Below are positions 28,901-49,495 of a stretch of 52,356 nt of DNA, in pieces (position 1 is the first letter of the stretch; each line of letters begins with the position of its first letter). The position numbers and the translations under genes were made by a program. Location of the stretch: positions 1 to 52,356 of the IMG/VR virus record IMGVR_UViG_3300021959_000062; one strand, given 5' to 3'. Below the pieces are notes generated by a model, which did no database searches, was not told the origin of the DNA, and worked only from the letters and a program-made list of their open reading frames with translations. Source of the stretch: a virus (taxonomy: Duplodnaviria; Caudoviricetes).

Positions 28901-31900
28901 TTAAGACCAGATTGAGGTGAAGGGTTGAAATTATCTAAATTGCCAGTTGTGTCAATTATAATAGAATAATCTCTTGATCTGCTAGTAAAAGACAATAAGT
29001 CATGAACTAACAAATTAGCATCCGGATATCCTGGATATCCACTAGCCCAAAAAATATTTTCGGTTAATTTACCCAAGCTTAATGTAAATAAAGGTTCTTC
29101 TGTTGTACTACCACTAGCTTCAGATCTAAAAAATTCATTTTCTTCTGTAAAAAGTGAAACATCTCTAATATTAGAATCTCTAGTTAAAATTTGATTACCT
29201 GCTTCAGTCAATATTTCTTCAGGAAATAATAAGTCTTTTTCTGTTGTCAAAACTTCTCTACCACCGACAAAAATTGAATAATCATTAAATGATTCAACAG
29301 TAAAAAAGCTACTTAGTTTATCAGTCGCTGAGTTAAAGATTTGCAAACCACTAAATACATGTTGACTATTATCTCTATAAGCATTTATAAGATGTAATCG
29401 ACCATCAATTAACCCTGGAGTACCAGAAATAGTAAATGGGGTGTAAGCAGCTTCTAATCTACAATCATCTGGTAAAGCACTATTTTCTAATAGCCCACTT
29501 ATAGGAATTTGAGATAAGTCTCCAGAAATTGTTGCGGTAGGGTGTTCATGAATAATAGGAGTAACTTCAAACAAGTCTTTACCATTAACTAAATTTGCTT
29601 TAAAATTATTTTGTGCTGTAGAAAATGTAAAATAAGGATCATAAGATCCTACTCCACTAATTTGACCTACAATAGTTCCACTAGGAGAATTTTCATTTAT
29701 GTTAGATGATAGTAATTGTATGTCAGTAATGTCTTTATGATTAGATCGTTCAGCATCAAAAATCTGCACTGCATTATCTGTTACAGTTAAAAAGAAATCA
29801 TTAAAGATACCACTAAAATTATTATTAGCAAACACTCTGATATTATAAATACCTAGATCATAACCAGATGGAGTGCCAGTAAAAACTCTAGTTGATGTAT
29901 TAAAAGACAACCAAGAAGGCAATGCGGAACCACTTTGTTGTATGGCATCAAATGTCAAAACACCTTCATTTTCTTCTTCGTTAAAAAGATCGGATGGTAC
30001 GGTATAAGAGAACGTTTCACTTATATCAATTGTTTGATCAGGAATAGAATAGTGCCTATATGGGGCTCTGGTGTCATTTACTGTAATTGTAAAGTTTTTT
30101 TCTTTTGATGTATTATTTAGTCTGTCCTGTGCTTTAATTCTTACAGAGTATATGTTTTTAGATTCGTAATTTAAAGGATCTTTAGCTTTCAGAAAAAATT
30201 GATCATTAATATTATCTACTTCAAAAATACTATTATCATCATCTTTATATCCTGTACATAATTCATAAGACAATGGGGTGTGAGGCAATACAATTTCGTT
30301 ATTTAATCCTGTACCATAGATATCCAAAGACATTATGCCATCATGTGTTTTACGTCGAGTATATATTCCCTTCGTCTTCTTAAATTTTGTAGAAGCTGAA
30401 TTAAAAGTACCAGATATATCATGTTTATGCGAAACAAATACAGATCCAGAATTAGAAGCAAGTGGTATTAATGTGACTTCAAGTCCAGAAGGATAAGATA
30501 ATTTTTTAGGTACTGGAATAGTATCTATAGATAATGAAGCCGATCCGTCGTAATCGTTTTCATTGTGTTTAATGCCGTTGCTAAATATTTGTACTCCTTC
30601 AGGACCAGTAGTATATATTTTTGTAGCAATATTCAACAAATCACTGACATATTCTAATCCAGCAGCTCCATCATCAACACCTACACTATCTAAGTTAATA
30701 ATTAATTTTGCATAATCTATTGTGGAACTACCCTCATAATATGACAAGAAACCAGTATACATTGGTCTCTCCACAAAGAAGGTGTTACTATCTATAACAC
30801 TATATGCTTTATATGCACGATCATCAAGACTGTAGCTACTATTGTGTTTAAAGGATAAGTCAACAAAAGAATTTGTCGTGACACCATGATTTTTAGATGT
30901 TATCTTAATACCTCTGTTTGTGTCATCAGTAAAAAATGTTCCTGAATACAAAGGTTCATGTATATCTAAAATTAAATTACCATCGTTAGTTTTCCTATAA
31001 GTACCACTTGCTGCTTTATGAATTTTAGTATATCTATAATTACTCTTTACATTTTGTGTAGTAATATCATTGTTTTGCAAAGGAGGTGCGTTTACCTTTA
31101 CATCTTGTAAAGTTCTTTGCTCATTAGTGTGGTCAAAAGTATGATAGTGATTTTTAATTTGTGAATTATTAAAAAGTTCATTTTTCTTGGGAATTTGCGG
31201 ATGAGTAGTTTTGTTGATAATCTCTACTATATTGTTAGAATTTCTAAAAGTTGCATTTTTGAAAACTCCACTTTCCAACTTAAAATGAGCAACACCTGTT
31301 CCGAACGCTTTAGTTACCAATACTTCTGCTTGATACGCTAAAGTCTTATTATTTGGAATTTGTATAGTAGGACTTAAACTAGTCCATGTGTCACCAACTT
31401 CTGTGCCTTGTAAATGCATATTAACAGAAGTATATTGTCCATGTTCTAATCTTAATCCACTCGCATCATTAACATTAAATGCTCCTACAGCAATTTGATT
31501 GGGTAAAGATGTAATACCATAATTACCCATCGATATAGAATTAAGTCCACCAGCTGTAGAATTATTTCCCAAAGCCACAGAATTATTAGTATTGACAGTA
31601 TGGCCTTGACCAACTGCTAAAGAATCATTGCTAGTAATAGTATTAGGGCCAATACTAATAGACCTATTAGCATTTAATAAATTACCAGTACCCATAGACA
31701 AATTATTAGGACTATCTACAACAATATCATTGTTAGAGTCCTGTTGTATTACAGTGCTATCTATACGTCCTGCAGGATCATTGACCGTGTCATTAAATTT
31801 AGATAAATAATTGTGAGTTCCTTGAATGTGATCAAAAGTTACATTATCATAAGAAAATGCTCCTGTCATTTGAGCAGCATCTCTGTAGTCTGTTCCATGT

Positions 31901-33591
31901 TTGCCATCTAATAGATCTGCATTTAAGCTTATGACTACATTCGTATTTCCATAAAGTTCTAAAGGTGATTCGCTTATTCCTAAATTTGGAGAGATATTAA
32001 CTTTACCCTTAACAGTAATACCATCAGCAAATGTTTTAAGTCCATTGATAGTTTCATCTGTCGTTTTCTTAACATATAAAGTATCAGCAATATTTTTTAA
32101 TAAAATTGTAGATTGATCGCCATCAAGATTTTGTAAGACAAAGACAGATTCTGCACTACCTCCATTTATATCATCTTGATAATCACTATCTCCATCACCA
32201 TCTATATCTGCACCTGAAGCAAATACATTGGTAACAAGTTTTAGCTCATCAGCTGCAGGATAATATGCAATCAAACCTGTTTTATTAGAAAATGCTCCAC
32301 CGTAAACAAAACTAACACCTCTCGGTGTGTCTGGTAATAAATTAGGACTATTAGTAGCAAATAATGGCAAATTATCAAAAACAGAAAGCTGACCATTAAT
32401 CGTCACATCGTTTTGTAAAGTAGTATCACCATAAATAGTTTTTGTTCCAGTATCAGGAACAGGTGTGTATCCTAAAGAATTAACTATATCTGTTTTATCT
32501 GCATACAATACAGTGGTAACTAATCCGTTAGAATCAACGCCTACTTTTGTGTATTGTCCAGGAACTACGGCTGATGGCAGAACCGAAGTATTTATCGTTC
32601 CTGTCAAATTAGAAGCATCACTATAATAAGAGCCCTCTTGATTATCTAGCCTGTCAGCATCTAAAAGAGATCCAGGTCCAGAATTACCAAGATGAAAAGG
32701 AGTATAGCCTAATATAGAGACAATATCTGATTCAGATAGGGACTCACCAGATACTACTCTACCTTTAGAGTCAGTAGTGACTTTAGAATATGTACCTGCG
32801 GTTCCTGTTACACTCAGATTTATGTTATTATCTTCTACAAGAATATCTGATGATGATGGTATATTAATAACTACAGAACCATTAGGAATCTCTAAAGCAC
32901 CACCACCAACTAATCCTGAACCTGCTACAATATCTACGTTCACACCACTAAATACAAAATTACCTGTAGCAATTGGAAAAGATTTTATCTTAGAACCATC
33001 GTAGTATACTAGTTGATTTTGAGTATAGAAATTATTATTAGTACCACCTTTACTAATGGGTACTTGTCCGTCAATTGCTCCCAGGTCTAACTCTGCAACT
33101 CTAGCTATTGTACTATCAATCTTAATTTCATTTGAATTACTAATTTCAAGTCCTTCACCCAACTCAACATTAACAGTAACGTTATTTGTTCCATCTGTTT
33201 TAGATAATCCAGAACCAACTAAAACTCCTGTAACAGCATTAGATGCAACTGTTGCATCATTTATAATATCTTGAATAGAGTGACTTGAAGAAGATAATTT
33301 TTGACCATCAAAGAATATAATATTTCCACTAGAATATGTTGTATTATTTGTTCCACCACTAGATATAGACAGTACTTCAAACTGATTAGCATTCTGGCCT
33401 GCAGCACCCTGATCGCCAGCCTCTCCCTTAATTCCTTGAGGCCCTTGAGATATGTTAACTACTTTTATTTGATTGGTATTTTCATCAGAAATAACAACAC
33501 GAGAAGTGATTATTGTATCATTTTCATCTTGTCTAGAAATTATCAAATATTGATTAGTTTGAAATTGTTGATCTACTGTAACTTTTGTCAT
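19912..33591 (-). CDS. Giant (~4559 aa) fibre/adhesin-like putative virion protein
   Basis: ATG at 33591 overlaps the upstream stop (ATGA). The N-terminal ~800 aa is trimeric-fibre-like (short collagen, ISxGGTNN x2, YxKVxxDSxG x2, LGYTP x2, DADxLD/NADLLD, YadA-like NSVALG repeats). Cadherin/dystroglycan-type Ig motifs follow (LNYESKNIYSVRIKA; LPSWLSFNTSTRVFTGTP), then long beta-rich regions. Confidence 0.85.
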   Translation of the reverse strand: MTKVTVDQQFQTNQYLIISRQDENDTIITSRVVISDENTNQIKVVNISQGPQGIKGEAGDQGAAGQNANQFEVLSISSGGTNNTTYSSGNIIFFDGQKLSSSSHSIQDIINDATVASNAVTGVLVGSGLSKTDGTNNVTVNVELGEGLEISNSNEIKIDSTIARVAELDLGAIDGQVPISKGGTNNNFYTQNQLVYYDGSKIKSFPIATGNFVFSGVNVDIVAGSGLVGGGALEIPNGSVVINIPSSSDILVEDNNINLSVTGTAGTYSKVTTDSKGRVVSGESLSESDIVSILGYTPFHLGNSGPGSLLDADRLDNQEGSYYSDASNLTGTINTSVLPSAVVPGQYTKVGVDSNGLVTTVLYADKTDIVNSLGYTPVPDTGTKTIYGDTTLQNDVTINGQLSVFDNLPLFATNSPNLLPDTPRGVSFVYGGAFSNKTGLIAYYPAADELKLVTNVFASGADIDGDGDSDYQDDINGGSAESVFVLQNLDGDQSTILLKNIADTLYVKKTTDETINGLKTFADGITVKGKVNISPNLGISESPLELYGNTNVVISLNADLLDGKHGTDYRDAAQMTGAFSYDNVTFDHIQGTHNYLSKFNDTVNDPAGRIDSTVIQQDSNNDIVVDSPNNLSMGTGNLLNANRSISIGPNTITSNDSLAVGQGHTVNTNNSVALGNNSTAGGLNSISMGNYGITSLPNQIAVGAFNVNDASGLRLEHGQYTSVNMHLQGTEVGDTWTSLSPTIQIPNNKTLAYQAEVLVTKAFGTGVAHFKLESGVFKNATFRNSNNIVEIINKTTHPQIPKKNELFNNSQIKNHYHTFDHTNEQRTLQDVKVNAPPLQNNDITTQNVKSNYRYTKIHKAASGTYRKTNDGNLILDIHEPLYSGTFFTDDTNRGIKITSKNHGVTTNSFVDLSFKHNSSYSLDDRAYKAYSVIDSNTFFVERPMYTGFLSYYEGSSTIDYAKLIINLDSVGVDDGAAGLEYVSDLLNIATKIYTTGPEGVQIFSNGIKHNENDYDGSASLSIDTIPVPKKLSYPSGLEVTLIPLASNSGSVFVSHKHDISGTFNSASTKFKKTKGIYTRRKTHDGIMSLDIYGTGLNNEIVLPHTPLSYELCTGYKDDDNSIFEVDNINDQFFLKAKDPLNYESKNIYSVRIKAQDRLNNTSKEKNFTITVNDTRAPYRHYSIPDQTIDISETFSYTVPSDLFNEEENEGVLTFDAIQQSGSALPSWLSFNTSTRVFTGTPSGYDLGIYNIRVFANNNFSGIFNDFFLTVTDNAVQIFDAERSNHKDITDIQLLSSNINENSPSGTIVGQISGVGSYDPYFTFSTAQNNFKANLVNGKDLFEVTPIIHEHPTATISGDLSQIPISGLLENSALPDDCRLEAAYTPFTISGTPGLIDGRLHLINAYRDNSQHVFSGLQIFNSATDKLSSFFTVESFNDYSIFVGGREVLTTEKDLLFPEEILTEAGNQILTRDSNIRDVSLFTEENEFFRSEASGSTTEEPLFTLSLGKLTENIFWASGYPGYPDANLLVHDLLSFTSRSRDYSIIIDTTGNLDNFNPSPQSGLKRSNIKYGSDRFNFRNTVQNPVLALYGIGSGDLCTLLSEDNNLITSEDSDDIVSNNENHHGTRIELNDTYEIFQSYHVTKDNGKLKFNTFDNIMQENGDFLVHDYAIAAKSGDACLSFPGSRKGDIVLTYPDAVDMSDSVFNYYYNWGKLIPFTFTNDKFFVKTNKTYSGSNSTKTIRYNQTIPQASNYRISGLKTYTHTIQSGDCPIDVGIAAIKGFASQENNYNAEYATGVVEFYTQAGTGEITINTLRDINLDSRYSNSVNLHTVASNNNSLDLPIATQYSDIEIVDADSIKLKNYFYLPDSGINGNGTFTANFDKKHNYIEEASTIINRLPIEFTNSITTLSGVTTVSGNRPKDYVFDIDSINGNKITVRDDANYLLKEDNRQDYFDQALKGKYITNGIAFSGSFFHNDSRIYDVRYNDTNILNKNFVAFEYDISSKIISFILPSGTVKEYDELIITFPEGYNYSDNVLHSLVTKENFLTSSSLTDLEPNKDSVLLETSTSVDPNAGLEQVRITGMLDNVEFDINGTCFIDYNLPNRLQSGLLLNHSGSLINGYEMSSFVSGFSFTGVIPKNNNVLSTNISTLILDEHIGKSSVFATGSNFFYSGTRLLRQTTSSDIGFSEYYLTDSDSTTNLQPSDLTGVGSSSNPYSYNFENKTSGVKYLEFLYLGQNINDLTIAGRYLSSGSTDRVAPKLKIYKITLETQTQNYRNQLGGLAPPSFSSSVAYQRSDYTVPHDQIYVDTDFHSNGRTSYFNTPANITGIRIETIAGGPGSAFGYGWTYYVGDGQQTWDAGYMNFGGALSTHRGQSHVQYKTTTDSQNPLITSSTHTFSSNAIDITDRFIVSEPQAPRYSEWIQDINVNISNLKRFDIIRIEIDNTENNTTANFNFTTNVDNPVNIKPYILESETILNTGTDYLPYINPNPPDLIYTPVPTLDANDCIDCTTNLPQYIPERNPGYSTLAKHDYHVLPIIRTNNKYCGVTYDKNKQLWFNGNILKINQFDSGKTYLSKDDELEILSWNDTAISSTGVTKFVHKFNPTNENSVISGISIQGSRSIPPKTSGVPHALMFQNAQRFNLNLGFSHNELLNNRGDISLIKSTSGQFNLYDYNNIHYHTYGGTTSNYPLDINGKLVSTPQTGIYTVSHNDKLCESGTLCVRISAYNISAFSGIPDIRDRRTFGELPNNIDVNGVKGRIRPFGVNKKMYFDFKDDFAAISDDYYIEDLIEPNIISINVPYNSNHVGKSGLVYIIDSDQNIKANLNPNLDNDFIVSQGSLSDLNQQDKKIFNYYDRDSKRWKHTIHLKNDQIAYSGYDIELNDTDTKFLSLNPNKIEISGIQYSFDAIDPVFTTLTGTSLTVPSNITEVKFKIITLQGDQNLFNSDTFSTPRVALSGIGYYKTELEEPAHYGWHGNGWTIGVEWQPPAENFSNRDMTIRVSDFTGSTDKLLNISKYLVPEISPAYTGYVVAGTNNWELTFDISNIDVNTLFTQGRIAFDITDTPEPSQVNIKNTDANSVVYSGGGGSTTGTFNPQLVLKDITTSPYTTLASGTGAIVVVPHLSDRPTYDLQLNNLSTTYYLNIEDEDKIKFQIPALLGPVSTEVTNNLNITFNTNSDYNLILSSSLYNSNTKRFEIIATPQNTGNTNYYENSAKFVNQSVSISIKQAVYDEYGAHSYQTYTDSFGFNLVFYKPVQFEKIINPGVIPFTVDNPWTMDFYIASGVTEHDAVNRPNARVFNTPNIGLYQGNPIEYDTTYEYDSTLRKWKVQIISSKDMFGNYVDNTGLYPIDIYIEDDLTSSTSNDSYVIQYNDKKIMKNISADVYGTPNNEFFTKVDSIDLNEQSSNDISFPSSLKEGSISLSSPVRKYDRDLKLWQNSYIGNKMTDKFDVRLNTNGSQLAIECKGIGKDKIIAVAKFDTIEIESNELQGLPLTITGIVGYTGPNGSGQEVRQGEEAWELQFKTIGGLAHANYPPTIRLTDMPTACSGFDPLIDTQMQCLITPPLWNPNDRGGSWSYHFSGLPSCTLVGLKDINIFAVDTNTGLLPASPYLPDTDSVDHRYNYIEGNFTGTPPQIVNSILYENMGVMKPFCGNVLYKKQYDFGPTVPPLCIGPTGIRNYSVSGSLPSGLSYSIYFPEETNFPREPYSNIGSGHILIQGVPTEFANGGAYSEELTLKIEDARGLEAQRTFTFVDTSVPNDPDVGIAVYFKTEDAILSPEGGSGLVKGSSSNWRPPPIEQTIVCNSILPHNRCGVLDVVYSGTLSADTKVYIIEPADDDSANDLSVDDEIYLKIPDVNNDDLNGFYVVQSNDTGKYIDAGLSLTIQTTGTAQVIKGEHKNINLSNFNDFFEGNLVSNVSTCLIGGGKVGTKLTSNGGSSTELGLRGILVPSFKTSITGTIPFANNNIRYSGLKFDRVNSETDIISKASWSDCWQTGNLYISGIIVPPIHAEIVDPPPAQDYFFSFNGARFALATRLAFGDNEVQRLIPDNERNGTLKYSLTNLTSNTIIQSGSVGGGNSFDTETLTTSSGAIYKLFIEHESDDFPTYDHSALPDDNNEYIWVHKGDNLTTIPTQNSFPPITTAGFDSISVTNSLTDLDPNGVVMDPIIGIAYGGYIPDDAGIGQAIPYNHSGTVSVSGTWSTEDFLPKISGVIQKSLMTSPINNVNASYAGDTNQIVIQTTGVIEDNVVSIKLFNGSDLFDSHQLVVGSSNLNSSSRLIYTKDLGTTTRNNLTSDITFKSVVEEVTTTGILVRHNNLSIQSGDLAGIDKNSYVSTELASLDNAGVISVASGSTTHFLLENSNQESDWTDSFASGDFVDVYLNINDNIKIMPYNTTFITEGKYGFQITGRSNVRENEDLVYKICTAENSGQPIFDNATYPHVGITYKKHFQNYPLYVNKPISIVTGTVNKTGNTLTFSTLGGKRPIANYAPDVQLAAGTNDYSYCGFLRNSINPDILIDEYDSVNDRLNISFNLDPQYGIDWSTYSQIKIKISDETGTDEYTYTY

Positions 33592-34019
33592 GTGCAAGTT
33601 CCGCAGTTGTCCTGAACGTCAAATGTTCCAGAAAATGCGTTTGTATCTGGAACATTCCTAGATTGAACAGTAACCGTACCTCCTAAAATTCTAAAGACTT
33701 TTTTGCCACCACCACTATATAAATCATTAGGTTCTTGTAGTTCTAAGTCATAAGCTGCACTTGTAAACGTATAAGCCGCTGTTTGTGAAGCTGGTATCTT
33801 AAGACTTAATTTACCTTCTGCTGGAACTAACACAAATTCATAAGTAGAATTTCTAGTGTCTGTGATAAAAGTAGAAATATTACTTTCGTTATCTTTCCAT
33901 CTAAGTCTAGCGACCCAGTTAGTTAAATCAATAATATTTTCATTATTGTCTTTATACTCAAAACTAATAACAAAAGCAGTACCTTTTTCTATAGTAAAAT
34001 TATAACTTGCTGCTGGCAT
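33588..34019 (-). CDS. Small beta-sandwich adaptor protein (BppU-N-like), paralog 2
   Basis: 143 aa; YNFTIEKGTAF...IIDLTNWVARLRW...AAYDLELQ...RILGGTVTV; clear paralog of 40849-41250. Confidence 0.6.
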   Translation of the reverse strand: MPAASYNFTIEKGTAFVISFEYKDNNENIIDLTNWVARLRWKDNESNISTFITDTRNSTYEFVLVPAEGKLSLKIPASQTAAYTFTSAAYDLELQEPNDLYSGGGKKVFRILGGTVTVQSRNVPDTNAFSGTFDVQDNCGTCT

Positions 34020-34955: not shown

Positions 34956-37900
34956 TTATGGTATCAGTTCATTATTTGTATTAGAAAATATATTAGCTTC
35001 TCTATAGGCTGATGTTTCATTTAATCCACCAACTTCTAGTAGATCAACTTTAGCTACCCAGTGAACATTAGTAGATGCTGCTCCTTTACATTGTACGAGC
35101 AAGAAATCTGTTTGACCAGAACCAGCTCCAGCAAATGCCAATTGAGCATCCCAGGCACTATTAGATTCAGCTATCACAGTTTTTGTAACCGAACCAACTA
35201 CAGCCGTACCATATGCATCATTGTGTAAACAGGCTTTGAGTTGATATGCTGCATGTTGTCTTCCTGCTGCTGTATTTCCAGTATTTGTTCTACGTCCTAC
35301 AATATTTACGTCAGCAAAAAATGTTTTATTAGAAGGTAATCTAACTCCACTATACATACCATTATTCATTTCGAGGCTAGTAAAAGTAGCATTAGTGGTT
35401 TCACCTGTTAATAAATTCATGCTGTTTTGAGCATTTCCAGGAAACTCACCCCAAGCTGCTTCTGTGGAATGTACAATTGTACCACTTTGATGTAGTAATC
35501 CACTGACTCCTACGTTCAGTCCTGTAGTAGCTGTGATACCTTTTGTACTTACTGTGTCAGATAAATCAATATTAATTTCAGTATTAGGAGTTTCTGTAAC
35601 AGCAAAATTAGAAGCAAGATCTAAAGTAACAATATCTGCTCCACCAACTTGAGTGCCATTAGCTTTAACGGTTGTCATACTACCACCGCCGCCACCAGCA
35701 TTTGCGTCAACATAAGCTTTAATAGATTGCTGTGTAGCTAAGTGTGTAGCACTATCGGAAGCCATATTATCTTCATCTTTTACAGGAACAACAAAATCAA
35801 GTGTTCCATCTCCATCTTCATAAGTAACAGTAATAAAAGTTTCAGTATTTCCTGTAACCATACCTCCAACAAAATCTTCAACTTGTTCTTCAGTAAGACT
35901 ACTTCCACTTCCACCATCAGCAGCCCAGGAGACAGCACCATTACCATCAGTTTTTAAGATCTGATTTGCAGAACCATCTGCTGTAGGGAAAGTGAATGCA
36001 CCATTGATATTTAGTTTGCCAATTTGCACAGTGTCTTCACTACCATCAACAAACAACAAGTCAATATCTGTGTCACCTTCAACTCTAAAATCAACAGCTG
36101 CTCCACCTTCATTAAATACAGCCGCTCCTCTAACATCTAATGTTCCACCAAAGTAATTCTTGGCATCGGTAGAAACTTGATAAACACCATATTCATTGGT
36201 TACAGTTGTGTTTCCTCCACCAGCATCACTTAAATATAAGCCGTAATGATTTGTAACAGTATTATTCGTTCCTTGTAAAGAAGGAATAGTCTTAATGTCA
36301 AATGCATTTGTGACAGTAACATTAGAAGCAGCACTATTAATAGACATGTTTGCTCTAACGGCTGTTAACTCAGCTAAGGTATTCGTACCATCTGGAGAAT
36401 AAATAACAGGAACAGCATTAACTCCTATGGCATATCCACCATCAGTAGTTGATGCACTTAAATATTTTTCTGCTCTACTATTAAGCCCTATATGAAAATA
36501 TGATCCATCAGTAGTAGAATAGGCCCTACCTAGAACGTTAATGGTTCTAGAATATGTACTATTTGTTTTGTTTGCCTCATAAACATGTAGTTTAGAATTA
36601 ATGCTTCCGTCGGTGCTGTTCCCAATTAGCACAGAGTCTTTACTTGCGTCTAAAAATAGTAGATTTGCATCAGTATCACCCTCTACTCTAAAATCAATAT
36701 TAGCTCCACCTTCGTTAAATACTGTGACAGAATTTCCAATTACAGCTTGATTGGTGGAAGCGTTTATAGTAACATTTTGATCAAAAGTAGTAGCAGAAGC
36801 TCCGAATGTTGCTTTAGTGGAATTGTCTACCGAAATTTGAAGAGAAGAAGTGCCAACAGCATCACCTTCATCAACAGCTATAACACTAGCGGTATTACCA
36901 TTATAAAATCTAGTTTTTAGTGCAGAACTTGTGTCTTCTATGGTAATGTGTCCACCGTCTGAATATTCACCTTTAACATGAAGTATGCCTGCTGGACTAT
37001 TAGTCCCAATACCTACTTTATCTGCACTTCCATCTACAAAAAGAAGGTTCTGATTAGTATCTCCTTCTACTCTAAAATCAACAGAAGCCCCAGCTTCATT
37101 AAAGATAAAATCCCCATCATTATTTATTATAGCTCTTTCACTACCAGCTGTAATAAATCTCATATTAATGGCACCACTAGTACCAATGTTAAAACTAGAA
37201 GTAGAGACTCCAAAACCAGCATAACCACCAGATTCGTCATAAGCTCGTAAATATCCTAAAGATGCTACATTTCCATCTAATGCTTTATCAGGATACTCCC
37301 AACGAAGCAAATCTGTTAAAGCACCAATCTTAGCAGAAGTAACTCCATCGTCTTTAATTCTTAAGGTATCACTATTAATTTCTATAGTACTATCATCAAC
37401 GCTAACAGCAAATGTTCTATTGGCACTAATATCCCCACCACCAGTAAGGCCATCACCAGCAGTTAAAGTAACACTTGTATGATCTATATGTTCATTGGCT
37501 ACAAAATTATTGGCTGCATCATGATCTACTACAAACTCTAAATTACCATTAGTATCATCATAAGTAACAGAAATGCCTGTTTCTGTGTCATCAACCATTC
37601 CTCCTACTATATCTTGAACTTGTTCAGTTGTTAGTGCAGGAACGATGGTTGCATCTACGTAAGCCTTTACTGATTGTTGAGTAGGAACCTTAGTATCTGA
37701 ATCAGAGGACATATTATCTTCATCTACAACAAAACTCATTCCAGCGGTAGTGCTATCACTGTTCATTACAGCACCAGCAGCATTAACATTAGTTGCATCA
37801 GTTACATCTGCTGAAGCCTCAATAGCGTCTAACTTAGTTTTATCTCCGTTAGCAAACGCACCTTCTGATGGCTTGACTTGTAAGGTAGAAATAGTAACGC

Positions 37901-39473
37901 CTTTAACACCTGCAAGGTCAGTTAATTCACTGTCCATCAACGCACCGGCGCTAGTAACGTTTGCAGTATCGGTCACATCCGCGCTACTCTCTACTGAATC
38001 TAATTTAGTTTCCTGAGCATCTGTCATAAATCTTTTATTAGATGCATCTGTCATATTTGTAGTGACGAGATTAGGCGAAGCTCCAGCTATTACTGATTGG
38101 TCTAGTGCTTTAACATCAGTAATACTTGCTAATTCGCTATCCATTAATGCACCAGCAGCGGTGACATTAGCAGCGTCTGTGACATCTGCACTTGCCTCGA
38201 TACCATCAAGCTTAGTTTTATCTCCATTAGCAAAAGCTCCCTCAGACGGGGGCTGTTGAGCACTATCAGCTTTTGTTCCTTGTGCTGCTGTTGCATAATC
38301 TGAGGAATCAAATGCCTTAACTTCAGACAGATTTGTTACCTCTGAATCCATTAACGCACCGGCCGAGGTTACATTAGCTGTATCTGTTACGTCTGCAGAA
38401 GCCTCAATTGCATCTAGCTTTGTCTTGTCTCCATCGGCAAAAGCACCCTCTGAAGGTTTAACTTGCAATGTAGAAATTGTAACACCTTTAACGCCTGCCA
38501 GATCTGTCAATTCGCTATCCATTAAAGCACCAGCAGAGGTGACATTAGCTGTGTCAGTAACGTCAGCAGATGCTTCGATGCCATCTAGCTTAGTCTTGTC
38601 ACCATTGGCAAAAGCTCCTTCTGACGGTGGCTGTTGTGCGCTATCGGCCTTAGTTCCTTGAGCAGCTGTAGCATAATCTGAGGAGTCAAATGCCTTGACC
38701 TGCGACAAGTTTGTAACTTCTGAGTCCATTAATGCCCCAGCTGAAGTCACATTGGCCGTGTCTGTAACATCTGCAGAGGCTTCAATGCCGTCTAATTTGC
38801 TATGATCTGCCGTTGTAAAGTTTTCATCTGTTTGACTAGCTACTACAAAGTCTATGGTTCCATCATCATCTTGATATGTAACAGTAATCCCTGTCTCTGT
38901 ATTTCCTGTAACCATGCCGCCAACGAAGTCTTCTACTTGTTCTTCTGTCAGTTGTGTATCTGTAGTAGAATATGTGCTAGTATCAACACTCCCATCAGCT
39001 TTTAAGAACTGACTAGAAGTCCCAGCGGTTTTAACAAAACTATTGGCCTCAACTTTTGCACTAAAATGACCTGAGCCAGTTATGTCTATGTGGCCAGTAC
39101 CTGTAAGATTTTTAGAATTAAGATCCAAATTACCACCTAGTTGTGGTGTTGTATCTTCTACTACGCTGCCAATACCTCCACCACCACCCTCACTTGCAGT
39201 AGCGACTGTTATAGCAGTAACATGTCCGTTACTGTCAAGAGTAATATCTTGTATAAAAGTATTACCACTATTATCAGAAGAACTTGCAGCACTAATAGTA
39301 GGATGATCTGTATTATTAACAGCAGCTAAAGAATTCCAAGCTGTAGTTCCATCTCCTATTTTTAAAATATTATTAGTAGTATCAAATCCTGGTTCACCCT
39401 GAGCAAGAGTTGGATTACTACTCCAATCAGATGCAGTCCCTCTTCTAAGTTTAATTAAATTATTTACAGCCAT
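34956..39473 (-). CDS. Long fibre protein with N-terminal Mtd_N-like domain and modular repeats
   Basis: 1505 aa; IKLRRGTASDW...GEPGFDTTNNILKIGDGTTAWNSL; six KLDxxExSADVTD units; three DFRVEGDT units; three EQVxDxVGGMV units; two DEDNMxSDS...TQQSxKAYVDA units. Confidence 0.88.
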   Translation of the reverse strand: MAVNNLIKLRRGTASDWSSNPTLAQGEPGFDTTNNILKIGDGTTAWNSLAAVNNTDHPTISAASSSDNSGNTFIQDITLDSNGHVTAITVATASEGGGGGIGSVVEDTTPQLGGNLDLNSKNLTGTGHIDITGSGHFSAKVEANSFVKTAGTSSQFLKADGSVDTSTYSTTDTQLTEEQVEDFVGGMVTGNTETGITVTYQDDDGTIDFVVASQTDENFTTADHSKLDGIEASADVTDTANVTSAGALMDSEVTNLSQVKAFDSSDYATAAQGTKADSAQQPPSEGAFANGDKTKLDGIEASADVTDTANVTSAGALMDSELTDLAGVKGVTISTLQVKPSEGAFADGDKTKLDAIEASADVTDTANVTSAGALMDSEVTNLSEVKAFDSSDYATAAQGTKADSAQQPPSEGAFANGDKTKLDGIEASADVTDAANVTAAGALMDSELASITDVKALDQSVIAGASPNLVTTNMTDASNKRFMTDAQETKLDSVESSADVTDTANVTSAGALMDSELTDLAGVKGVTISTLQVKPSEGAFANGDKTKLDAIEASADVTDATNVNAAGAVMNSDSTTAGMSFVVDEDNMSSDSDTKVPTQQSVKAYVDATIVPALTTEQVQDIVGGMVDDTETGISVTYDDTNGNLEFVVDHDAANNFVANEHIDHTSVTLTAGDGLTGGGDISANRTFAVSVDDSTIEINSDTLRIKDDGVTSAKIGALTDLLRWEYPDKALDGNVASLGYLRAYDESGGYAGFGVSTSSFNIGTSGAINMRFITAGSERAIINNDGDFIFNEAGASVDFRVEGDTNQNLLFVDGSADKVGIGTNSPAGILHVKGEYSDGGHITIEDTSSALKTRFYNGNTASVIAVDEGDAVGTSSLQISVDNSTKATFGASATTFDQNVTINASTNQAVIGNSVTVFNEGGANIDFRVEGDTDANLLFLDASKDSVLIGNSTDGSINSKLHVYEANKTNSTYSRTINVLGRAYSTTDGSYFHIGLNSRAEKYLSASTTDGGYAIGVNAVPVIYSPDGTNTLAELTAVRANMSINSAASNVTVTNAFDIKTIPSLQGTNNTVTNHYGLYLSDAGGGNTTVTNEYGVYQVSTDAKNYFGGTLDVRGAAVFNEGGAAVDFRVEGDTDIDLLFVDGSEDTVQIGKLNINGAFTFPTADGSANQILKTDGNGAVSWAADGGSGSSLTEEQVEDFVGGMVTGNTETFITVTYEDGDGTLDFVVPVKDEDNMASDSATHLATQQSIKAYVDANAGGGGGSMTTVKANGTQVGGADIVTLDLASNFAVTETPNTEINIDLSDTVSTKGITATTGLNVGVSGLLHQSGTIVHSTEAAWGEFPGNAQNSMNLLTGETTNATFTSLEMNNGMYSGVRLPSNKTFFADVNIVGRRTNTGNTAAGRQHAAYQLKACLHNDAYGTAVVGSVTKTVIAESNSAWDAQLAFAGAGSGQTDFLLVQCKGAASTNVHWVAKVDLLEVGGLNETSAYREANIFSNTNNELIP
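37755..38810 (-). repeat. Six-copy intragenic repeat array with alternating linkers
   Basis: Core KLDGIEASADVTDTANVTSAGALMDSE; linkers in order A,B,A,C,B. Confidence 0.92.
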
Positions 39474-39499
39474 GTTTTATTATATCCTATAAATTTATA

Positions 39500-40606
39500 T
39501 TATGGTGATCCACCATCTATGCTTGCATAAGAAATTACTACAGGACTACCTGCATTAGTTCCAGCAAAAATAGCCATGCCACTTACACTCGTACTACTAT
39601 TACCTAGCGTAATTGCGGTAGTTCCCACAGTAACATTACTAGCAGCTAATTTACTAACAGCAATAGCGGCACTAGCATTAATATGAGTATTGGTAATATC
39701 TACATTAGCAAGATTACTAAAATCTACAGTAGCATCAAGTTCACCCTTAGTTCCTCCAAACACTTCACTAGTATTGGTCGCATCAGGAATAAATGTAAAT
39801 TTGCCTGTACTATCATCATATCCAAAAAATCCAGATTTAGCAACTGATCCGTCATGATATAAAAATTCAACACCCCGATCCTTATTGTCATCACTACCAG
39901 GAACCGTATCTCCTCCGACTCTAATGACAGGATCATCAACACTAACAACCGTAGAATTAACAGTAGTCGTTGTGCCATTAACTGTTAAATCTCCATCAAC
40001 CGTTAGATTTCTTAATCCTGTTAAATCTTTATCACTATCTACAACAACTGCTTTACTAGCCGATACAGTGCCTCCTGTAACTCCATCCAAAACATTTACC
40101 TCTGAAGCACTTGCTGTAACATCTGTCACTTTATCTAAATTAATTCCTACGACGCCAATGTCTATTGTATTGTCTGAGTCTCTATAATTTAAACCCAATC
40201 CACTAGCAGCATTAAGACCTGTTCCAATAATATCTTGTACATCTTCTGCACTTACTGAAGAAGTTGCAGTGCTATTAATAGTAATTTGTCCACCAGCATT
40301 ACTTAAAGTAATATTATTACCAGCCACAATATTAGCACTAAAAGAAATACCTGTAACTTGACTATTACTATCTGTGACCTTGGTAATGCTAACCCCACTA
40401 CCACCAGCAGTATGTATATCGTCAAAAGCTATACTTAAAAATTCTAAACTGTTCCAAGCAGTAGTACCATCACCAATTTTAACTCTATCTGTGGTAGTAT
40501 CTAAACCTATTTCACCAGCACCTAATACTGCTCCATTACCGCCATTGGCTGTGGACCAATCGCTTGATGAGCCTCTTCTAACTTGTAGTAATGTGTTAAC
40601 TGGCAT
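39500..40606 (-). CDS. Short fibre protein: N-terminal Mtd_N-like domain, C-terminal IDGGSP
   Basis: 368 aa; LQVRRGSSSDW...GEIGLDTTTDRVKIGDGTTAWNSL; LTVDGDLTVNGTTTTVNST...DDNKDRGVEF fibre motif; GGAGAAT RBS. Confidence 0.85.
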   Translation of the reverse strand: MPVNTLLQVRRGSSSDWSTANGGNGAVLGAGEIGLDTTTDRVKIGDGTTAWNSLEFLSIAFDDIHTAGGSGVSITKVTDSNSQVTGISFSANIVAGNNITLSNAGGQITINSTATSSVSAEDVQDIIGTGLNAASGLGLNYRDSDNTIDIGVVGINLDKVTDVTASASEVNVLDGVTGGTVSASKAVVVDSDKDLTGLRNLTVDGDLTVNGTTTTVNSTVVSVDDPVIRVGGDTVPGSDDNKDRGVEFLYHDGSVAKSGFFGYDDSTGKFTFIPDATNTSEVFGGTKGELDATVDFSNLANVDITNTHINASAAIAVSKLAASNVTVGTTAITLGNSSTSVSGMAIFAGTNAGSPVVISYASIDGGSP

Positions 40607-40621
40607 TATGTATTCTCCGTA

Positions 40622-40849
40622 TTATGGTGTGCCACAATCTATATTGTAGCTGTCTATAAAATTTGTTAGGTAATTATCTAAACCGACTACTTCACTAGCA
40701 TAAACAATAGTTGCAGCAAAACCAGTACTAATTTCTACCGTATCTGTAACTGTGCTAGTAGCTTCTACGGTTTGAGTATTATCATCTGTAGATATCTCAA
40801 TATCCAATGTACTAACTGTATCAGATATTTCTAAAGTAAAATCACTCAT
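40622..40849 (-). CDS. Small acidic linker-like protein ending IDCGTP
   Basis: ATG at 40849 preferred (TAATG overlap, GGAG RBS; 75 aa); rich in Thr/Val beta-strand segments. Confidence 0.7.
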   Translation of the reverse strand: MSDFTLEISDTVSTLDIEISTDDNTQTVEATSTVTDTVEISTGFAATIVYASEVVGLDNYLTNFIDSYNIDCGTP

Positions 40850-41250
40850 TAAGGACACTCCAATGCTGTGGTAGATTTACTAAATCTCTTCTGTATGTTT
40901 ACAGTACCAAAAAGTAGTCTTGTCACATACCTACCGCCTTCAGTATAATGAAGTTCATCTGACTGTAATTCTAAATCATACTTAGCATTATTAAAATCAA
41001 ATCCATTAGTAGTACCAGCAGCAAATAATAAATTAATTTTACCTAAAGTTCCTTCTATATTAAAATCATAAATGCTTTTATCTGTATTACTACTAGAAAA
41101 GGTCTGTGTAGCATTTGAACTGGTCCGCCATGTTAATCTAGCGCACCATCCTGAAATATCAATAGGATCTCCATTTGAATCTTTATATATTAAAGACATC
41201 TTAAATGAGGAACCTTGTTCAATAGTAAAATCGTACTGACTTGCACCCAT
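40849..41250 (-). CDS. Small beta-sandwich adaptor protein (BppU-N-like), paralog 1
   Basis: 133 aa; YDFTIEQGSSF...PIDISGWCARLTW...AKYDLELQ...RLLFGTVNI; GAGG RBS. Confidence 0.6.
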   Translation of the reverse strand: MGASQYDFTIEQGSSFKMSLIYKDSNGDPIDISGWCARLTWRTSSNATQTFSSSNTDKSIYDFNIEGTLGKINLLFAAGTTNGFDFNNAKYDLELQSDELHYTEGGRYVTRLLFGTVNIQKRFSKSTTALECP

Positions 41251-41355: not shown

Positions 41356-42369
41356 TTAAACAGCGCCAAGGATGACTCTTCTGTTATCAAGAACAGCAAA
41401 GCCTTGCTCAGCCCAGCCATAGAAACCAGCTCTCTTCTGACGATGAAGTGTATCATCTTCGTAGATCTGTACTGGCTCACGAACTGGCATGATGAAACTA
41501 TCTCTCTTGCGAAGATCAAGTCCAACTACCAATTCAGTTGTATGACCTGTTGGCATGGAAGCACTTAGGGTGCTCTCATAGAACAACTGATATTCTTGGC
41601 CATCACCAAGCTCATCAAGGTCATGAAGGTTGACACCGAAGATTCTATTGACAGAACCATCAGCTGCAGTGTAAATCTCACGACGAGTTACCTCATCAAC
41701 CTGATCAACACCCCAATTACGAATGTCTTCCATAGCTTCTGGAGAGACATAAAGATCAGTCAACATTCCACGATTGTTGGAAGCTGAATTGCCACCGCCA
41801 TTACGACGCATGACGGTCTTTAGAAGAGAAACAAGTCTCTTGCTGAACTGACCTTCTGTAGCATCACTATCATAAACGACGATGTTACGATCTACACCGG
41901 CAGCAAGAATGGTGTGCCAACCGTCATCATTCATCTTTTTAACGAATGAAGCTTCAAGAACTTCCATAGCGCGACCGACAACGTCCCAACGGGCATCACG
42001 GGCATACTTTAAGAGATAATCAATGCTAGCACCGATATCAAAAGTAGGAACCATGACGTAATCGCCTTCGACGTGACGCTCTGGAATATAGCCATGATTA
42101 GGAACAGTATAAGCAACAAAGTCCTTTTCTGTACCTGGGGCTAAGAAATCAAGCGGAAATTCTGGAGTAGCACTCTGGGCCAATTGAATTGGCTCAAAGA
42201 TACCATCAAGAATGTTACCGCTAAGTACACCTTGACGGAGAGGCTGCTCTAGAGCTTTCGCAAATTCTGCAGTAGCAGCTAGAGAGGTCTCTCTGTGCTG
42301 CGAACCAGACTTAACTAAAAGATCAGTTAATTCTGGAGTTGGTTGAAATGCTTTAGTTTCTGCTGACAT
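41356..42369 (-). CDS. Major capsid protein (HK97 fold expected)
   Basis: 337 aa; follows protease/scaffold and decoration genes; strong GGGAGAAT RBS; terminator downstream; LYVSPEAMEDIRNW and GFYGWAEQGFAVLDNRRVI motifs. Confidence 0.88.
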   Translation of the reverse strand: MSAETKAFQPTPELTDLLVKSGSQHRETSLAATAEFAKALEQPLRQGVLSGNILDGIFEPIQLAQSATPEFPLDFLAPGTEKDFVAYTVPNHGYIPERHVEGDYVMVPTFDIGASIDYLLKYARDARWDVVGRAMEVLEASFVKKMNDDGWHTILAAGVDRNIVVYDSDATEGQFSKRLVSLLKTVMRRNGGGNSASNNRGMLTDLYVSPEAMEDIRNWGVDQVDEVTRREIYTAADGSVNRIFGVNLHDLDELGDGQEYQLFYESTLSASMPTGHTTELVVGLDLRKRDSFIMPVREPVQIYEDDTLHRQKRAGFYGWAEQGFAVLDNRRVILGAV

Positions 42370-48791: not shown

Positions 48792-49236
48792 ACATCTTTC
48801 TCATAAGTGCTAAGGCCATCTTCTCTGCGTTGGCAGCATCACCGCAGAATAATATTTTAACGTTGTGCAGTAGCTGGAGCTCATTTAGGTGTTTGAGAAT
48901 AAATTTAGGAGATATTCTTAATTTACTCCACATACGTTTGGGTACTGTAGATCCTACTGGATATCTTAATATGTCTTCTAGGTTAAATTCAAATAGTAAG
49001 AAGGCATGTTGTACTTTAGATAGTCTTTCTACTACGTCTTTAAAGCGCTTTTCGGTTATATTATTAGCAAACTCACTAACGCTGCCTTTTCGTTCAATGC
49101 AGAAGAATTCTTGTAAACCCTCTAGGGAATAGTCACCTGTATCTAATTTAGCTACAGTTTTCTCCATTTTATTGAATTCCCACGGTTGCTGTTCTCTCGT
49201 GTCTACTATTATTTTAAAATTACTGAAGTCTATCAT
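48757..49236 (-). CDS. ERCC4/XPF-family nuclease
   Basis: IIVDTREQ...GDYS...CIERKG signature (VDxRE, GD, ERK). Confidence 0.88.
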   Translation of the reverse strand: MIDFSNFKIIVDTREQQPWEFNKMEKTVAKLDTGDYSLEGLQEFFCIERKGSVSEFANNITEKRFKDVVERLSKVQHAFLLFEFNLEDILRYPVGSTVPKRMWSKLRISPKFILKHLNELQLLHNVKILFCGDAANAEKMALALMRKMYELYGQPKSDV

Positions 49237-49492
49237 GGGCTAGTATTTTGAGAAATACAGCTTCATAATTGTCTTCCATACCTTGGATTTGTTTATGGTG
49301 TCGTCTGCAAAGAGTTATGCCGTTATTAGGGTCAAATCTTAATCCGGGGTAATGGGCCCATGTTTTAATGTGGTGAGCATTCAAGCCTCCTCTGGCTCTA
49401 CAGTTAGGCCATCGACATTTGAAACCATCTCTCTTGTATACTTCTTTTCTCCATTTCTTGTAATTTGGGTCTTGGAAGTTTCGTTGTGCCAT
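49220..49492 (-). CDS. Small HNH endonuclease (terminase-associated, HK97 gp74-like position)
   Basis: RDGFKCRWPNC...AHHI...NNGITLCRRHH; 90 aa. Confidence 0.9.
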   Translation of the reverse strand: MAQRNFQDPNYKKWRKEVYKRDGFKCRWPNCRARGGLNAHHIKTWAHYPGLRFDPNNGITLCRRHHKQIQGMEDNYEAVFLKILAHDRLQ

Positions 49493-49495
49493 TTC

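What the first reader, a model, noticed from the sequence alone, without database searches (positions are those of the whole stretch)
34956..41250. Candidate plug-and-socket daisy chain: C-terminal ID(C/G)GxP plugs and N-terminal Mtd_N-like sockets
Seen in gene order: adaptor (133 aa), then a 75 aa protein ending NIDCGTP, then a 368 aa protein starting with an Mtd_N-like domain and ending SIDGGSP, then a 1505 aa protein starting with a very similar domain (KIGDGTTAWNSL in both). Each plug-bearing gene is followed directly by a socket-bearing gene, and the last fibre has no plug. Established: Mtd_N is the N-terminal region of the Bordetella phage BPP-1 tropism protein, which sits at fibre ends. 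Inference: a modular fibre-extension code that lets segments be added or swapped gene by gene.
Basis: partly seen in the sequence, partly recalled or inferred. Interest (0 to 1): 0.78.

Follow-up and report, generated by a model that had tools for sequence, protein, structure and literature searches.

The report
Plug-and-socket joints linking phage fibre proteins
In this uncultivated phage, three neighbouring genes appear to build one long fibre, each protein's short tail (…IDCGTP, …IDGGSP) docking on the Mtd_N-type head domain of the next, and the same pairing recurs in many unrelated phages, so fibre build-up may be readable from gene order.

Summary
On the minus strand the order is capsid gene, a 133 aa protein, a 75 aa protein ending NIDCGTP, a 368 aa protein (Pfam Mtd_N at 8-49) ending SIDGGSP, and a 1505 aa protein (Mtd_N at 7-44) with no such end.

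- **Complex model:** three copies each of the 75 aa protein and the 368 aa N-terminus scored 0.79, best of 3 controls 0.00. Only residues 65-75 of the small protein touch the socket.
- **Conservation:** 87 of 87 relatives of the 75 aa protein keep the end (IDCG[TS]P 82, IDGGSP 4, INCGTP 1).
- **Segment loss:** 9 of 19 related loci lack the middle gene. Their small protein carries the middle protein's tail instead.
- **Other phages:** 9 of 11 junctions before Mtd_N genes in 10 cultured phages carry a [ILF]DGG end, against 0 of 15 other ends.
- **Known relatives:** BPP-1 (…DLGGIA before Mtd) and T4 gp36 to gp37 (…DFGYY) look like relatives.

Serial fibre joints are known from T4, and the Mtd β-prism is already presumed to attach to the fibre. 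I found no description of the plug motif, its two dialects or the removable segment. Verdict: new variant of a known kind.

The parts
40849..41250 (-). 133 aa protein, the likely fibre-anchoring collar protein (LtfC-like); family phrog_1084
   Evidence: phrog_1084, E 3.6e-15. AlphaFold model: pLDDT 86.2, all-β. The best Foldseek PDB hits are 137-140-residue chains of the DT57C and T5 tail tips, E 8e-7, TM 0.60. Many Ig V domains score nearly as well.
40622..40849 (-). 75 aa base protein that carries plug 1
   Evidence: ORF. 87 relatives found, none longer than 132 aa. No Pfam or PHROG family.
40625..40660 (-). Plug 1: the last 12 residues, FIDSYNIDCGTP
   Evidence: F64, D66, I70, D71, C72, G73 and P75 are invariant in 12 sequences. 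End hexapeptide in 87 relatives: IDCG[TS]P 82, IDGGSP 4, INCGTP 1. Residues 65-75 are the only part of the protein at the modelled interface.
39500..40606 (-). 368 aa middle fibre segment, with socket 1 at its start and plug 2 at its end
   Evidence: The central part (about residues 180-340) is shared with cyanophage fibre and structural proteins. The gene is absent in 9 of 19 related loci.
40460..40585 (-). Socket 1: the Mtd_N domain of the 368 aa protein (residues 8-49)
   Evidence: Pfam 41.5 bits. Residues 1-12, 16-17, 20, 25-26, 32, 34 and 51 touch the plug in the model.
39503..39601 (-). Plug 2: the last ~33 residues, ending ...SGMAIFAGTNAGSPVVISYASIDGGSP
   Evidence: IDGGSP is invariant in 13 tails. 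The same tail replaces plug 1 on the 96-100 aa hybrid proteins of loci that lack the middle gene.
34956..39473 (-). 1505 aa distal fibre; socket 2 at its start, no plug at its end
   Evidence: Tail fibre PHROGs 24456 and 892. Ends ...NNELIP.
39342..39455 (-). Socket 2: the Mtd_N domain of the 1505 aa protein
   Evidence: Pfam 62.7 bits; 68.1 bits.
33588..34019 (-). 143 aa paralogue of the 133 aa protein, placed directly before the 4561 aa gene (a second fibre module)
   Evidence: phrog_1084, E 4e-19. Weak match to phrog_3304 'L-shaped tail fiber protein assembly', E 2.1e-4. 40% identical to the 133 aa protein.

Best explanation
The four genes after the capsid gene encode one serially assembled lateral fibre.

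- The 133 aa protein is an LtfC-like β-sandwich that anchors the fibre on the tail. This step is inferred.
- The 75 aa protein is a small base piece. Its variable N-terminal half is proposed to sit in that anchor (inferred).
- Its invariant last ~11 residues (...DSYNIDCGTP) lie as added strands along the first strand (LLQVRRG) of the trimeric Mtd_N domain that opens the 368 aa protein. This step is modelled.
- The 368 aa protein ends in a second tail (...IDGGSP). That tail docks in the same way on the Mtd_N domain of the 1505 aa protein, which carries the distal, presumably receptor-binding, end. This step is inferred from conservation and from the swap variant.

Each joint would be three tails on three heads, with both chains running in the same direction. 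Gene order therefore equals physical order.

Because the joint is short and self-contained, a whole segment (socket, body and plug) can be inserted or lost without breaking the chain. The residues after the GG match the type of socket.
For: **Complex model.** The job held 3 copies of residues 1-115 of the 368 aa protein and 3 copies of the 75 aa protein, each with a 12-row alignment.
- The score was 0.79 (runs 0.78, 0.79, 0.79), and the best of 3 controls scored 0.00.
- The tool's mark was reached by 58 of 80 solved complexes and 2 of 110 mismatched pairs.
- The runs agree in at least 94% of contacts. The partner's pLDDT is at least 54.
- The interface is residues 65-75 in all three copies. 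The lowest-error pairs are socket 6-12 with plug 69-75, in register.

**No solved look-alike by sequence.**
- The socket profile hits only phage hyaluronidases solved alone.
- The 75 aa profile found nothing relevant.
- T4 gp36 matched no PDB chain, and the gp37-type N-terminal (A5) profile matched none that is relevant.

**Conservation.**
- The plug is the most conserved part of a protein that otherwise diverges to 42% identity.
- Of 39 loci fetched by the plug-2 peptide, 38 have a gene starting with Mtd_N directly after it. The other is cut by the contig end.

**Segment loss.** 9 of 19 loci have a 96-100 aa protein made of the first ~63 residues of the 75 aa protein plus the ~33-residue tail of the middle protein. 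It is followed directly by the long fibre. The rest of the locus is syntenic.

**Unrelated carriers.**
- In 10 cultured phages chosen by socket alone, 9 of 11 junctions have [ILF]DGG plus 2-4 residues, against 0 of 15 other C-termini in the same stretches (Fisher p 1.8e-5).
- The carriers are unrelated proteins: 66-70 aa proteins, a collagen-like minor tail protein, an endopeptidase.
- Arthrobacter phage Pureglobe5 has the same three-gene chain (gp41 ...LIDGGTP, gp42 Mtd_N...TIDGGTP, gp43 Mtd_N).

**Covariation.** Before Mtd_N-type sockets, which carry a Trp, 54 of 74 tails end in P, 20 in other residues and 0 have an aromatic after the GG. Before gp37-type sockets, which have no Trp, 21 of 21 have an aromatic. 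In the model, plug residues 74-75 touch socket residues 16-17 (D, W).

**Known biology.** Mtd sits at the distal tips of BPP-1 fibres (PMC3240598, passage seen). The gene before mtd is the putative tail fibre, ending ...ADLGGIA. T4 gp36 binds the N-terminal region of gp37 (PMC3004832, passage seen).
Against: - Nothing is measured. There is no virion proteomics, no binding assay and no structure.
- Only the first joint was modelled. The second rests on analogy.
- The complex score is the model's own confidence.
- The loci are related to each other, and part of them were fetched by the motif, so the large p-values overstate independence.
- The pairing is not universal. No plug is seen before the Mtd_N gene in Synechococcus phage ACG-2014b or Gordonia phage Gibbles. 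Seven Saccharibacteria loci have ...SDYIETDN instead. In 8 of 29 socket clusters neither a plug nor a near variant predominates upstream.
- Mtd_N also occurs inside the 1501 aa protein of this window with no plug before it, so the domain does not need a plug to exist.
- A few proteins end in the plug with no socket gene directly after. In the L022-type 483-486 aa proteins a socket gene follows one small gene later. For L023 and L034 no socket gene was seen directly after the plug gene.
- The anchor role of the 133 aa protein rests on a TM 0.60 fold match that generic Ig domains nearly equal, and on an E 2e-4 PHROG match of its paralogue.
Confidence: 0.65

Rival explanations
1. The C-terminal motif and the Mtd_N domain are two independent standard parts of fibre genes. 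The motif would be a trimer cap, a folding nucleus or a processing signal of its own protein. It lies next to Mtd_N only because fibre genes cluster and duplicate in tandem. There is no direct contact.
For: Several proteins end in the motif with no socket gene directly after (L022-type 483-486 aa, L023, L034). Mtd_N occurs internally with no plug before it. Some Mtd_N genes have no plug upstream.
Against: The motif sits on unrelated, non-fibre carriers exactly at the junction: 66-75 aa proteins and an endopeptidase. It is absent from 15 of 15 other C-termini in the same stretches. The tail type tracks the socket type, with 0 of 74 against 21 of 21 aromatic. When the middle gene is missing, the small protein changes its tail to the one matching the next socket. 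The complex model places the motif on the socket while the controls score 0.00.
Confidence: 0.12
2. The 75 aa protein is an assembly factor rather than a virion part. It would bind the N-terminal domain of the 368 aa protein transiently, to help trimerisation or attachment, and then leave.
For: It is very small, has no family match, and the partner's pLDDT in the model is only 54-56. No proteomics is available.
Against: Known fibre chaperones act on C-terminal parts and are usually encoded after the fibre gene (recalled, not tested). The same tail also sits on large structural proteins: the 368 aa protein here, and minor tail proteins and the BPP-1 fibre elsewhere. The hybrid 96 aa form keeps the N-terminal half, which implies that half has its own conserved partner.
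Confidence: 0.1
3. The joints exist, but the assembly is not a linear tail fibre on an LtfC-like collar. The genes lie between the capsid gene and the connector and tail genes, so the chain could hang from the head or neck. Alternatively, the 368 and 1505 aa proteins could be alternative partners rather than consecutive ones.
For: The module directly follows the capsid and cement genes, and the tape measure gene is 30 kb further on. In Microbacterium phage Roman the plug-socket pair also follows the capsid gene. The LtfC likeness is weak.
Against: The two plugs differ (IDCGTP against IDGGSP plus a ~30-residue tail) and keep to their own downstream socket in every related locus where both ends could be read. 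This fits a fixed order. The paralogue of the 133 aa protein matches the T5 fibre-assembly PHROG.
Confidence: 0.13

Closest known systems
T4 long tail fibre, distal half: gp36 trimer joined to the N-terminal region of gp37
   Same: Separate trimeric proteins are encoded in the order in which they are joined. Trimeric gp36 binds the N-terminal region of gp37 (PMC3004832, passage seen). gp36 ends ...SVQDFGYY and gp37 begins with an IQFKRS...GELAIN domain. That domain matches the gp37-type N-terminal profile at 97.5% (E 5.6e-12). The profile in turn matches the Mtd_N profile at 95% (E 3.5e-8).
   Different: gp36 has its own Pfam domain (Phage_T4_gp36), which the window's proteins lack. gp37's N-terminus does not reach Pfam Mtd_N and matches my Mtd_N profile only at 68%. 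The gp36 end is a variant (DFGYY, not ΦDGG). T4 also has a monomeric knee, gp35. I found no account of the residues that make this joint, and no PDB chain of gp36.
Bordetella phage BPP-1: tail fibre (Bbp9) carrying the Mtd trimer
   Same: Mtd is the founding member of Mtd_N (Pfam 60.6 bits). It sits at the distal tips of the tail fibres (PMC3240598). Its β-prism is presumed to attach to the fibre protein (PMC10743442). The putative fibre gene lies directly upstream and ends ...ADLGGIA.
   Different: There is one joint, not a chain. The end is DLGG, not ΦDGG. The partner-side motif is not described in the passages I read.
T5 / DT57C lateral fibre attachment: LtfC collar with LtfA
   Same: LtfC is a ~140-residue single β-domain protein that anchors the fibre by accepting added β-strands from the fibre's N-terminus (PMC10713586, passages seen). 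It is the best fold match of the 133 aa protein, and the paralogue weakly matches the corresponding PHROG.
   Different: No sequence-level membership for the 133 aa protein itself. The ring form and location are untested. In DT57C the fibre's own N-terminus enters the collar, whereas here a separate 75 aa protein is proposed to do so.
Streptococcal prophage hyaluronidases (HylP family)
   Same: They are the only solved proteins whose N-terminus matches the socket profile (6x3m E 8e-10; 2yvv, 2c3f, 3eka, 2dp5). In phage Javan527 the preceding tail endopeptidase ends ...IILDGGKK.
   Different: They were solved alone, so the joint is not seen. The body is an enzyme, not a long fibre.
Anchor-and-branch receptor-binding proteins of Klebsiella phages
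   Same: The principle is the same: a short conserved docking element lets separately encoded receptor-binding proteins be exchanged (PMC6872550, of which I saw only the search listing and the start of the abstract; the rest is recalled).
   Different: The domains differ (a T4 gp10-like branching domain; recalled) and the geometry is branching rather than end to end. This was not tested here.

Membership tests
Pfam PF18454 Mtd_N | Match over the curated cut-off of 26.3 bits | tested here: met
   368 aa protein 41.5 bits; 1505 aa protein 62.7 bits; 1501 aa protein 47.0 bits, internal.
Pfam PF18454 Mtd_N | Trimeric β-prism at the N-terminus of a fibre-end protein | tested here: inconclusive
   The N-terminal position is met for two of the three copies. 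In the 3+3 model the socket chains have pLDDT 89-90. I could not inspect the fold, and the trimer state is assumed.
T4 gp36-gp37 type joint | The distal protein starts with a gp37-type N-terminal domain | tested here: inconclusive
   gp37-type profile against Mtd_N profile: 95%, E 3.5e-8 over 36 columns. T4 gp37 against Mtd_N profile: only 68%, E 4.7e-5.
T4 gp36-gp37 type joint | The proximal protein carries the Phage_T4_gp36 domain (PF03903) | tested here: not met
   No Pfam match for the 75 aa protein, and only Mtd_N for the 368 aa protein. T4 gp36 itself scores 178 bits.
T4 gp36-gp37 type joint | Physical binding of the proximal trimer to the N-terminal region of the distal trimer | not testable with these tools
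   Only a model: 0.79 against 0.00 for the best of 3 controls.
LtfC / T5 collar protein (phrog_3304) | Sequence membership | tested here: not met
   The 133 aa protein matches only phrog_1084 (unknown function). The 143 aa paralogue matches phrog_3304 weakly, E 2.1e-4.
LtfC / T5 collar protein (phrog_3304) | Single ~140-residue β-domain fold | tested here: inconclusive
   Model pLDDT 86.2. The top Foldseek hits are 8hqz_Q/T and 7qg9_J/L (TM 0.58-0.60, E about 1e-6), but Ig V domains follow at E about 5e-6. That these chains are LtfC / the T5 collar protein is inferred from their length.
LtfC / T5 collar protein (phrog_3304) | Dodecameric ring around the tail that accepts fibre strands | not testable with these tools

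The most novel reading that the evidence does not exclude
A short C-terminal plug (hydrophobic-D-G/C-G plus 1-4 residues) and the Mtd_N/gp37-type N-terminal β-prism would form a general head-to-tail connector of tailed phages. It would be used in hosts from at least five phyla, and would include the still unsolved T4 gp36-gp37 joint, the BPP-1 fibre-Mtd joint and the attachment of streptococcal prophage hyaluronidases. It would come in at least two matched dialects: a P-type tail with a Trp-bearing socket, and an aromatic tail with a Trp-less socket. These dialects would decide which protein joins which. Fibre architecture, including multi-segment chains and minimal 74 aa link units, could then be read from gene order and end motifs.
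Probability: 0.45. Interest if true: 0.85.

Novelty: new variant of a known kind. Interest (0 to 1): 0.72.

Why it matters
If the joint is real, it gives a simple sequence rule for three things:
- which neighbouring 'hypothetical' and 'minor tail' proteins form one fibre;
- in what order they join;
- where a segment can be added or lost.

That would improve annotation of the many small ORFs next to fibre genes. It would explain how fibre length and tips are reshuffled in nature, as the middle-segment indel here shows. It would also point to the residues of the long-studied but structurally unresolved T4 gp36-gp37 joint, and of the Mtd attachment, making both directly testable.

Tried and rejected
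- a paper search for 'Mtd_N' was swamped by 'mtDNA' and was useless.
- the diverse Mtd_N alignment A4 was too variable for a genome scan. A single 60 aa query was used instead, which reaches close relatives only.
- there is no cultured relative of this phage. The capsid protein is 21% identical to that of Bacillus phage G, and the 75 aa protein has no match.
- the gp37-type socket of L022 has no tblastn match among cultured phages.
- the 75 aa protein and the N-terminus of the 4561 aa protein show no similarity (E 1.3). The idea that both modules share a base piece is not supported.
- no longer (fused) homologues of the 75 aa protein were found. The tool itself rates this as weak evidence.
- **Papers:** Term look-ups inside papers were. 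None gave a description of the plug. PF18454 is named in 0 papers of the library.
- **Strict universality of the pairing:** considered and rejected, because of the misses.
Full report
**What is there.**

The window is a whole virus record of 52,356 bases, about 35% complete by CheckV. Every gene discussed here lies on the minus strand.

In transcription order the genes are:
- large terminase (46758-48791) and portal (44539-46704);
- a 546 aa protein;
- a cement-like protein (Pfam Phage_cement 26.9 bits, just under its 27-bit cut-off);
- the capsid protein (41356-42369);
- the four genes of the finding;
- proteins of 102 aa and 173 aa;
- a 143 aa paralogue of the 133 aa protein;
- a 4561 aa protein;
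- further fibre-like proteins;
- a tape measure protein at the window's end.

No cultured phage is close. The capsid protein is 21% identical to that of Bacillus phage G, and the 75 aa protein has no match.

**The arrangement is conserved, and the plug is its most conserved part.**

All 19 IMG/VR loci found with the 75 aa protein show the order capsid gene, 133/134 aa gene, small gene, gene starting with Mtd_N.
- In 10 of them the small protein has 75-77 aa and ends IDCG[TS]P.
- In the 5 of those 10 where the next gene is complete, it ends IDGGSP and is followed by a second Mtd_N gene.
- More distant loci (41-47% identity to the 368 aa protein) keep the same order.

In an alignment of 12 small proteins the invariant columns crowd into the last 12 residues: F64, D66, I70, D71, C72, G73 and P75.

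Among 87 cluster representatives from the 5.8-billion-protein set, down to 42% identity, the last six residues are:

| End | Count |
|---|---|
| IDCGTP | 73 |
| IDCGSP | 9 |
| IDGGSP | 4 |
| INCGTP | 1 |

A scan for the plug-2 peptide gave 39 confirmed loci, several on contigs already seen. Of these, 38 have an Mtd_N gene directly after, and one is cut 51 nt after the plug gene. Ten further pattern matches did not pass the tool's tblastn filter and were not examined.

**A natural deletion or insertion of one segment.**

In 9 of the 19 loci the middle gene is missing. A protein of 96-100 aa stands directly before the long fibre.
- Its first ~63 residues are the small protein (59-67% identity).
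- Its last ~33 residues align with the tail of the middle protein (...LSGM.SIAG....SP......IDGGSP).
- The long fibre and the genes after it are the same as in the window (L089 and L096).

So the unit 'plug 1, socket 1, body' is present or absent as a block, and the tail that remains is the one that matches the next socket. This is what a modular joint predicts.

**Model of the first joint.**

The one complex job held three copies of residues 1-115 of the 368 aa protein and three copies of the 75 aa protein, each with a 12-row alignment.
- The verdict was 'the model supports binding; it does not show it'.
- The score was 0.79, and the best of 3 controls scored 0.00.
- The mark was reached by 58 of 80 solved complexes and by 2 of 110 mismatched pairs. 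The tool notes that these counts hold only roughly for a job of this kind.
- The runs agree in at least 94% of contacts, and the partner's pLDDT is at least 54.
- Only residues 65-75 of the small protein are at the interface. They face socket residues 1-12, 16-17, 20, 25-26, 32, 34 and 51.
- The best-defined pairs run in register (socket 6-12 with plug 69-75). I read this as a parallel added strand; that reading is my inference.

A pass from memory is unlikely.
- By sequence, the PDB holds the socket only in phage hyaluronidases solved alone.
- It holds nothing like the small protein.
- It holds no T4 gp36 chain and no relevant match to the gp37-type N-terminal profile.

**Beyond this clade.**

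A tblastn search with the first 60 residues of the 1505 aa protein found 423 phage records. I picked 10 from different host genera and read the annotated genes.

| Phage | Protein before the Mtd_N gene | Its end |
|---|---|---|
| Arthrobacter Pureglobe5 | gp41 (70 aa) | ...LIDGGTP |
| Arthrobacter Pureglobe5 | gp42 (itself starts with Mtd_N; next is gp43, Mtd_N) | ...TIDGGTP |
| Microbacterium Roman | gp39 (directly after the capsid gene) | ...GLDGGTP |
| Gordonia Schmidt | gp24 | ...EFDGGVL |
| Gordonia Vendetta | gp26 | ...DFDGGEL |
| Cellulophaga phiST | 163 aa virion protein | ...NLDGGNSNS |
| Cyanophage PSS2 | 210 aa protein | ...SIDGGGSCD |
| Arthrobacter Ryan | gp31 (66 aa) | ...NFDGGSAA |
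| Streptococcus Javan527 | tail endopeptidase (before the hyaluronate lyase) | ...IILDGGKK |
| Synechococcus ACG-2014b | 72 aa protein | no motif |
| Gordonia Gibbles | gp34 | no motif |

That is 9 of 11 junctions, against 0 of 15 other complete C-termini in the same stretches (Fisher p 1.8e-5).

In BPP-1 the putative tail fibre gene directly before mtd ends ...ADLGGIA.

In 19 bacterial-genome loci found by the socket alone:
- 4 have the strict motif; one of these is a contig of this clade, and one lies 190 nt upstream;
- 5 have near variants (INCGGA, LNGGNA, IDGNGA, LSGGSASS, IDGQVEL);
- 7 Saccharibacteria loci share a different end (...SDYIETDN);
- 3 are negative or unreadable.

**A second dialect, and T4.**

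Other loci already held carry proteins ending ...[IVL]DGG[TS][YF]. These are followed by genes that start MA.TI.IKRS...P...GELA.
- This N-terminus does not reach Pfam Mtd_N.
- Its profile matches the Mtd_N profile at 95% probability, E 3.5e-8.
- T4 gp37 begins with this domain (97.5%, E 5.6e-12), and T4 gp36 ends ...SVQDFGYY.
- Chains occur here too: L022 (79 aa, then 483 aa), L063 (134, 384 and 358 aa), and L017.
- In L017 a 74 aa protein consists of just an Mtd_N domain (Pfam E 4e-15) and a plug (...TIDGGTY). It lies before an Mtd-like gene.

With HMMs of both socket types run over everything held, I found 121 unique N-terminal sockets. Of these, 85 have a strict plug upstream. At 55% single linkage they fall into 29 clusters: in 14 a strict plug predominates, in 7 a near variant, and in 8 neither.

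The tail tracks the socket type.
- Before Mtd_N-type sockets, 54 tails end in P, 20 end in other residues and 0 are aromatic.
- Before gp37-type sockets, 21 of 21 are aromatic.
- Trp is present in 90 of 92 sockets of the first type and in 0 of 29 of the second.

These counts are not independent events, because the sequences are related and the sample was gathered by similarity.

**The base of the chain.**

The 133 aa protein belongs to phrog_1084, of unknown function. Its 143 aa paralogue stands before the 4561 aa gene and weakly matches the T5 'L-shaped tail fiber protein assembly' PHROG.

An AlphaFold model (pLDDT 86.2, pTM 0.75) is an all-β domain. Its best PDB matches are 137-140-residue chains of the DT57C and T5 tail tips (E about 1e-6, TM 0.58-0.60). 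Antibody-type domains follow closely behind.

In DT57C, LtfC is a 140-residue protein that forms a dodecameric collar. The fibre is held by strands that it adds to the LtfC sheets (PMC10713586, passages seen). That the matched chains are LtfC is inferred from their length.

I therefore read the 133 aa protein as a likely fibre anchor, and the strand-rich N-terminal half of the 75 aa protein as the part it holds. This part is inference, at roughly even odds.

**Comparison with what is known.**

Two points are already in the literature.
- Separately encoded trimers are joined in gene order in T4, and gp36 binds the N-terminal region of gp37 (PMC3004832). A 2026 preprint shows the gp37 N-terminus only as a map.
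- The Mtd β-prism presumably attaches to the fibre (PMC10743442).

I did not find the following in nine paper searches and the passages read (listed under Tried and rejected):
- the plug motif on the proximal partner;
- the link between Mtd_N and the gp37-type domain;
- the matched dialects;
- multi-level chains with a removable segment.

The library lacks most subscription journals, and supplements were closed.

**Verdict.**

This is a new variant of a known kind, with a fair chance of being a general connector.

Noticed in passing
window 19912-33597 (-), with 33588-34019 (-): A 4561 aa protein with a collagen-like start, a cadherin-like stretch (just under Pfam's cut-off) and a He_PIG Ig domain. 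It is preceded by, and overlaps by 10 nt, a 143 aa paralogue of the 133 aa protein. This looks like a second fibre module that uses no plug, no socket and no small base protein. Its N-terminus is not similar to the 75 aa protein.
   Followed up: partly
window 9511-14016 (-), Mtd_N at 12781-12888: A 1501 aa protein with an internal Mtd_N domain (residues 377-412) after an fn3 domain, followed by a YHYH domain and cadherin-like repeats. No plug motif precedes the domain, so Mtd_N can also be a link inside one chain.
   Followed up: partly
window 34956-34990 (-) and related loci L089, L096, L110, L113, L121: The long distal fibres often end in a second recurring motif: hydrophobic-I-P (...NNELIP...PELIP...PEIIP...YNFIP...IDFIP). 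Others end ...SQVSYGTP (L003, L119). Its meaning is unknown.
   Followed up: no
L156 (genome contigs) = same length as the contig of L001/L081: A 15,640-base contig 95% identical to the window in these genes is binned in a Flavobacteriales metagenome-assembled genome. This is a weak hint at the host group.
   Followed up: no
L154, L155, L158-L162 (Saccharibacteria genome contigs): Seven loci have a ~350 aa protein ending ...SDY[IV]E[TV]DN directly abutting an Mtd_N gene (gaps -4 to 6 nt). This is a conserved end of another kind, possibly a third plug dialect.
   Followed up: no
L017 15072-15296: A 74 aa protein that is only an Mtd_N domain plus a ...TIDGGTY tail, followed by a BPP-1-Mtd-like gene. 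It would be the smallest conceivable link unit.
   Followed up: partly
L022, L037, L040, L041, L043: A 483-486 aa protein ends ...AIDGGSY, but the next socket gene comes only after an intervening 134 aa ORF. The partner genes need not be strictly adjacent.
   Followed up: no
window 48757-51963 (-): Upstream of the terminase lie an ERCC4-type nuclease, an HNH endonuclease, a nucleotide-sugar epimerase (phrog_540, E 4e-73), a D5-like regulator and a weak sigma-factor match.
   Followed up: no
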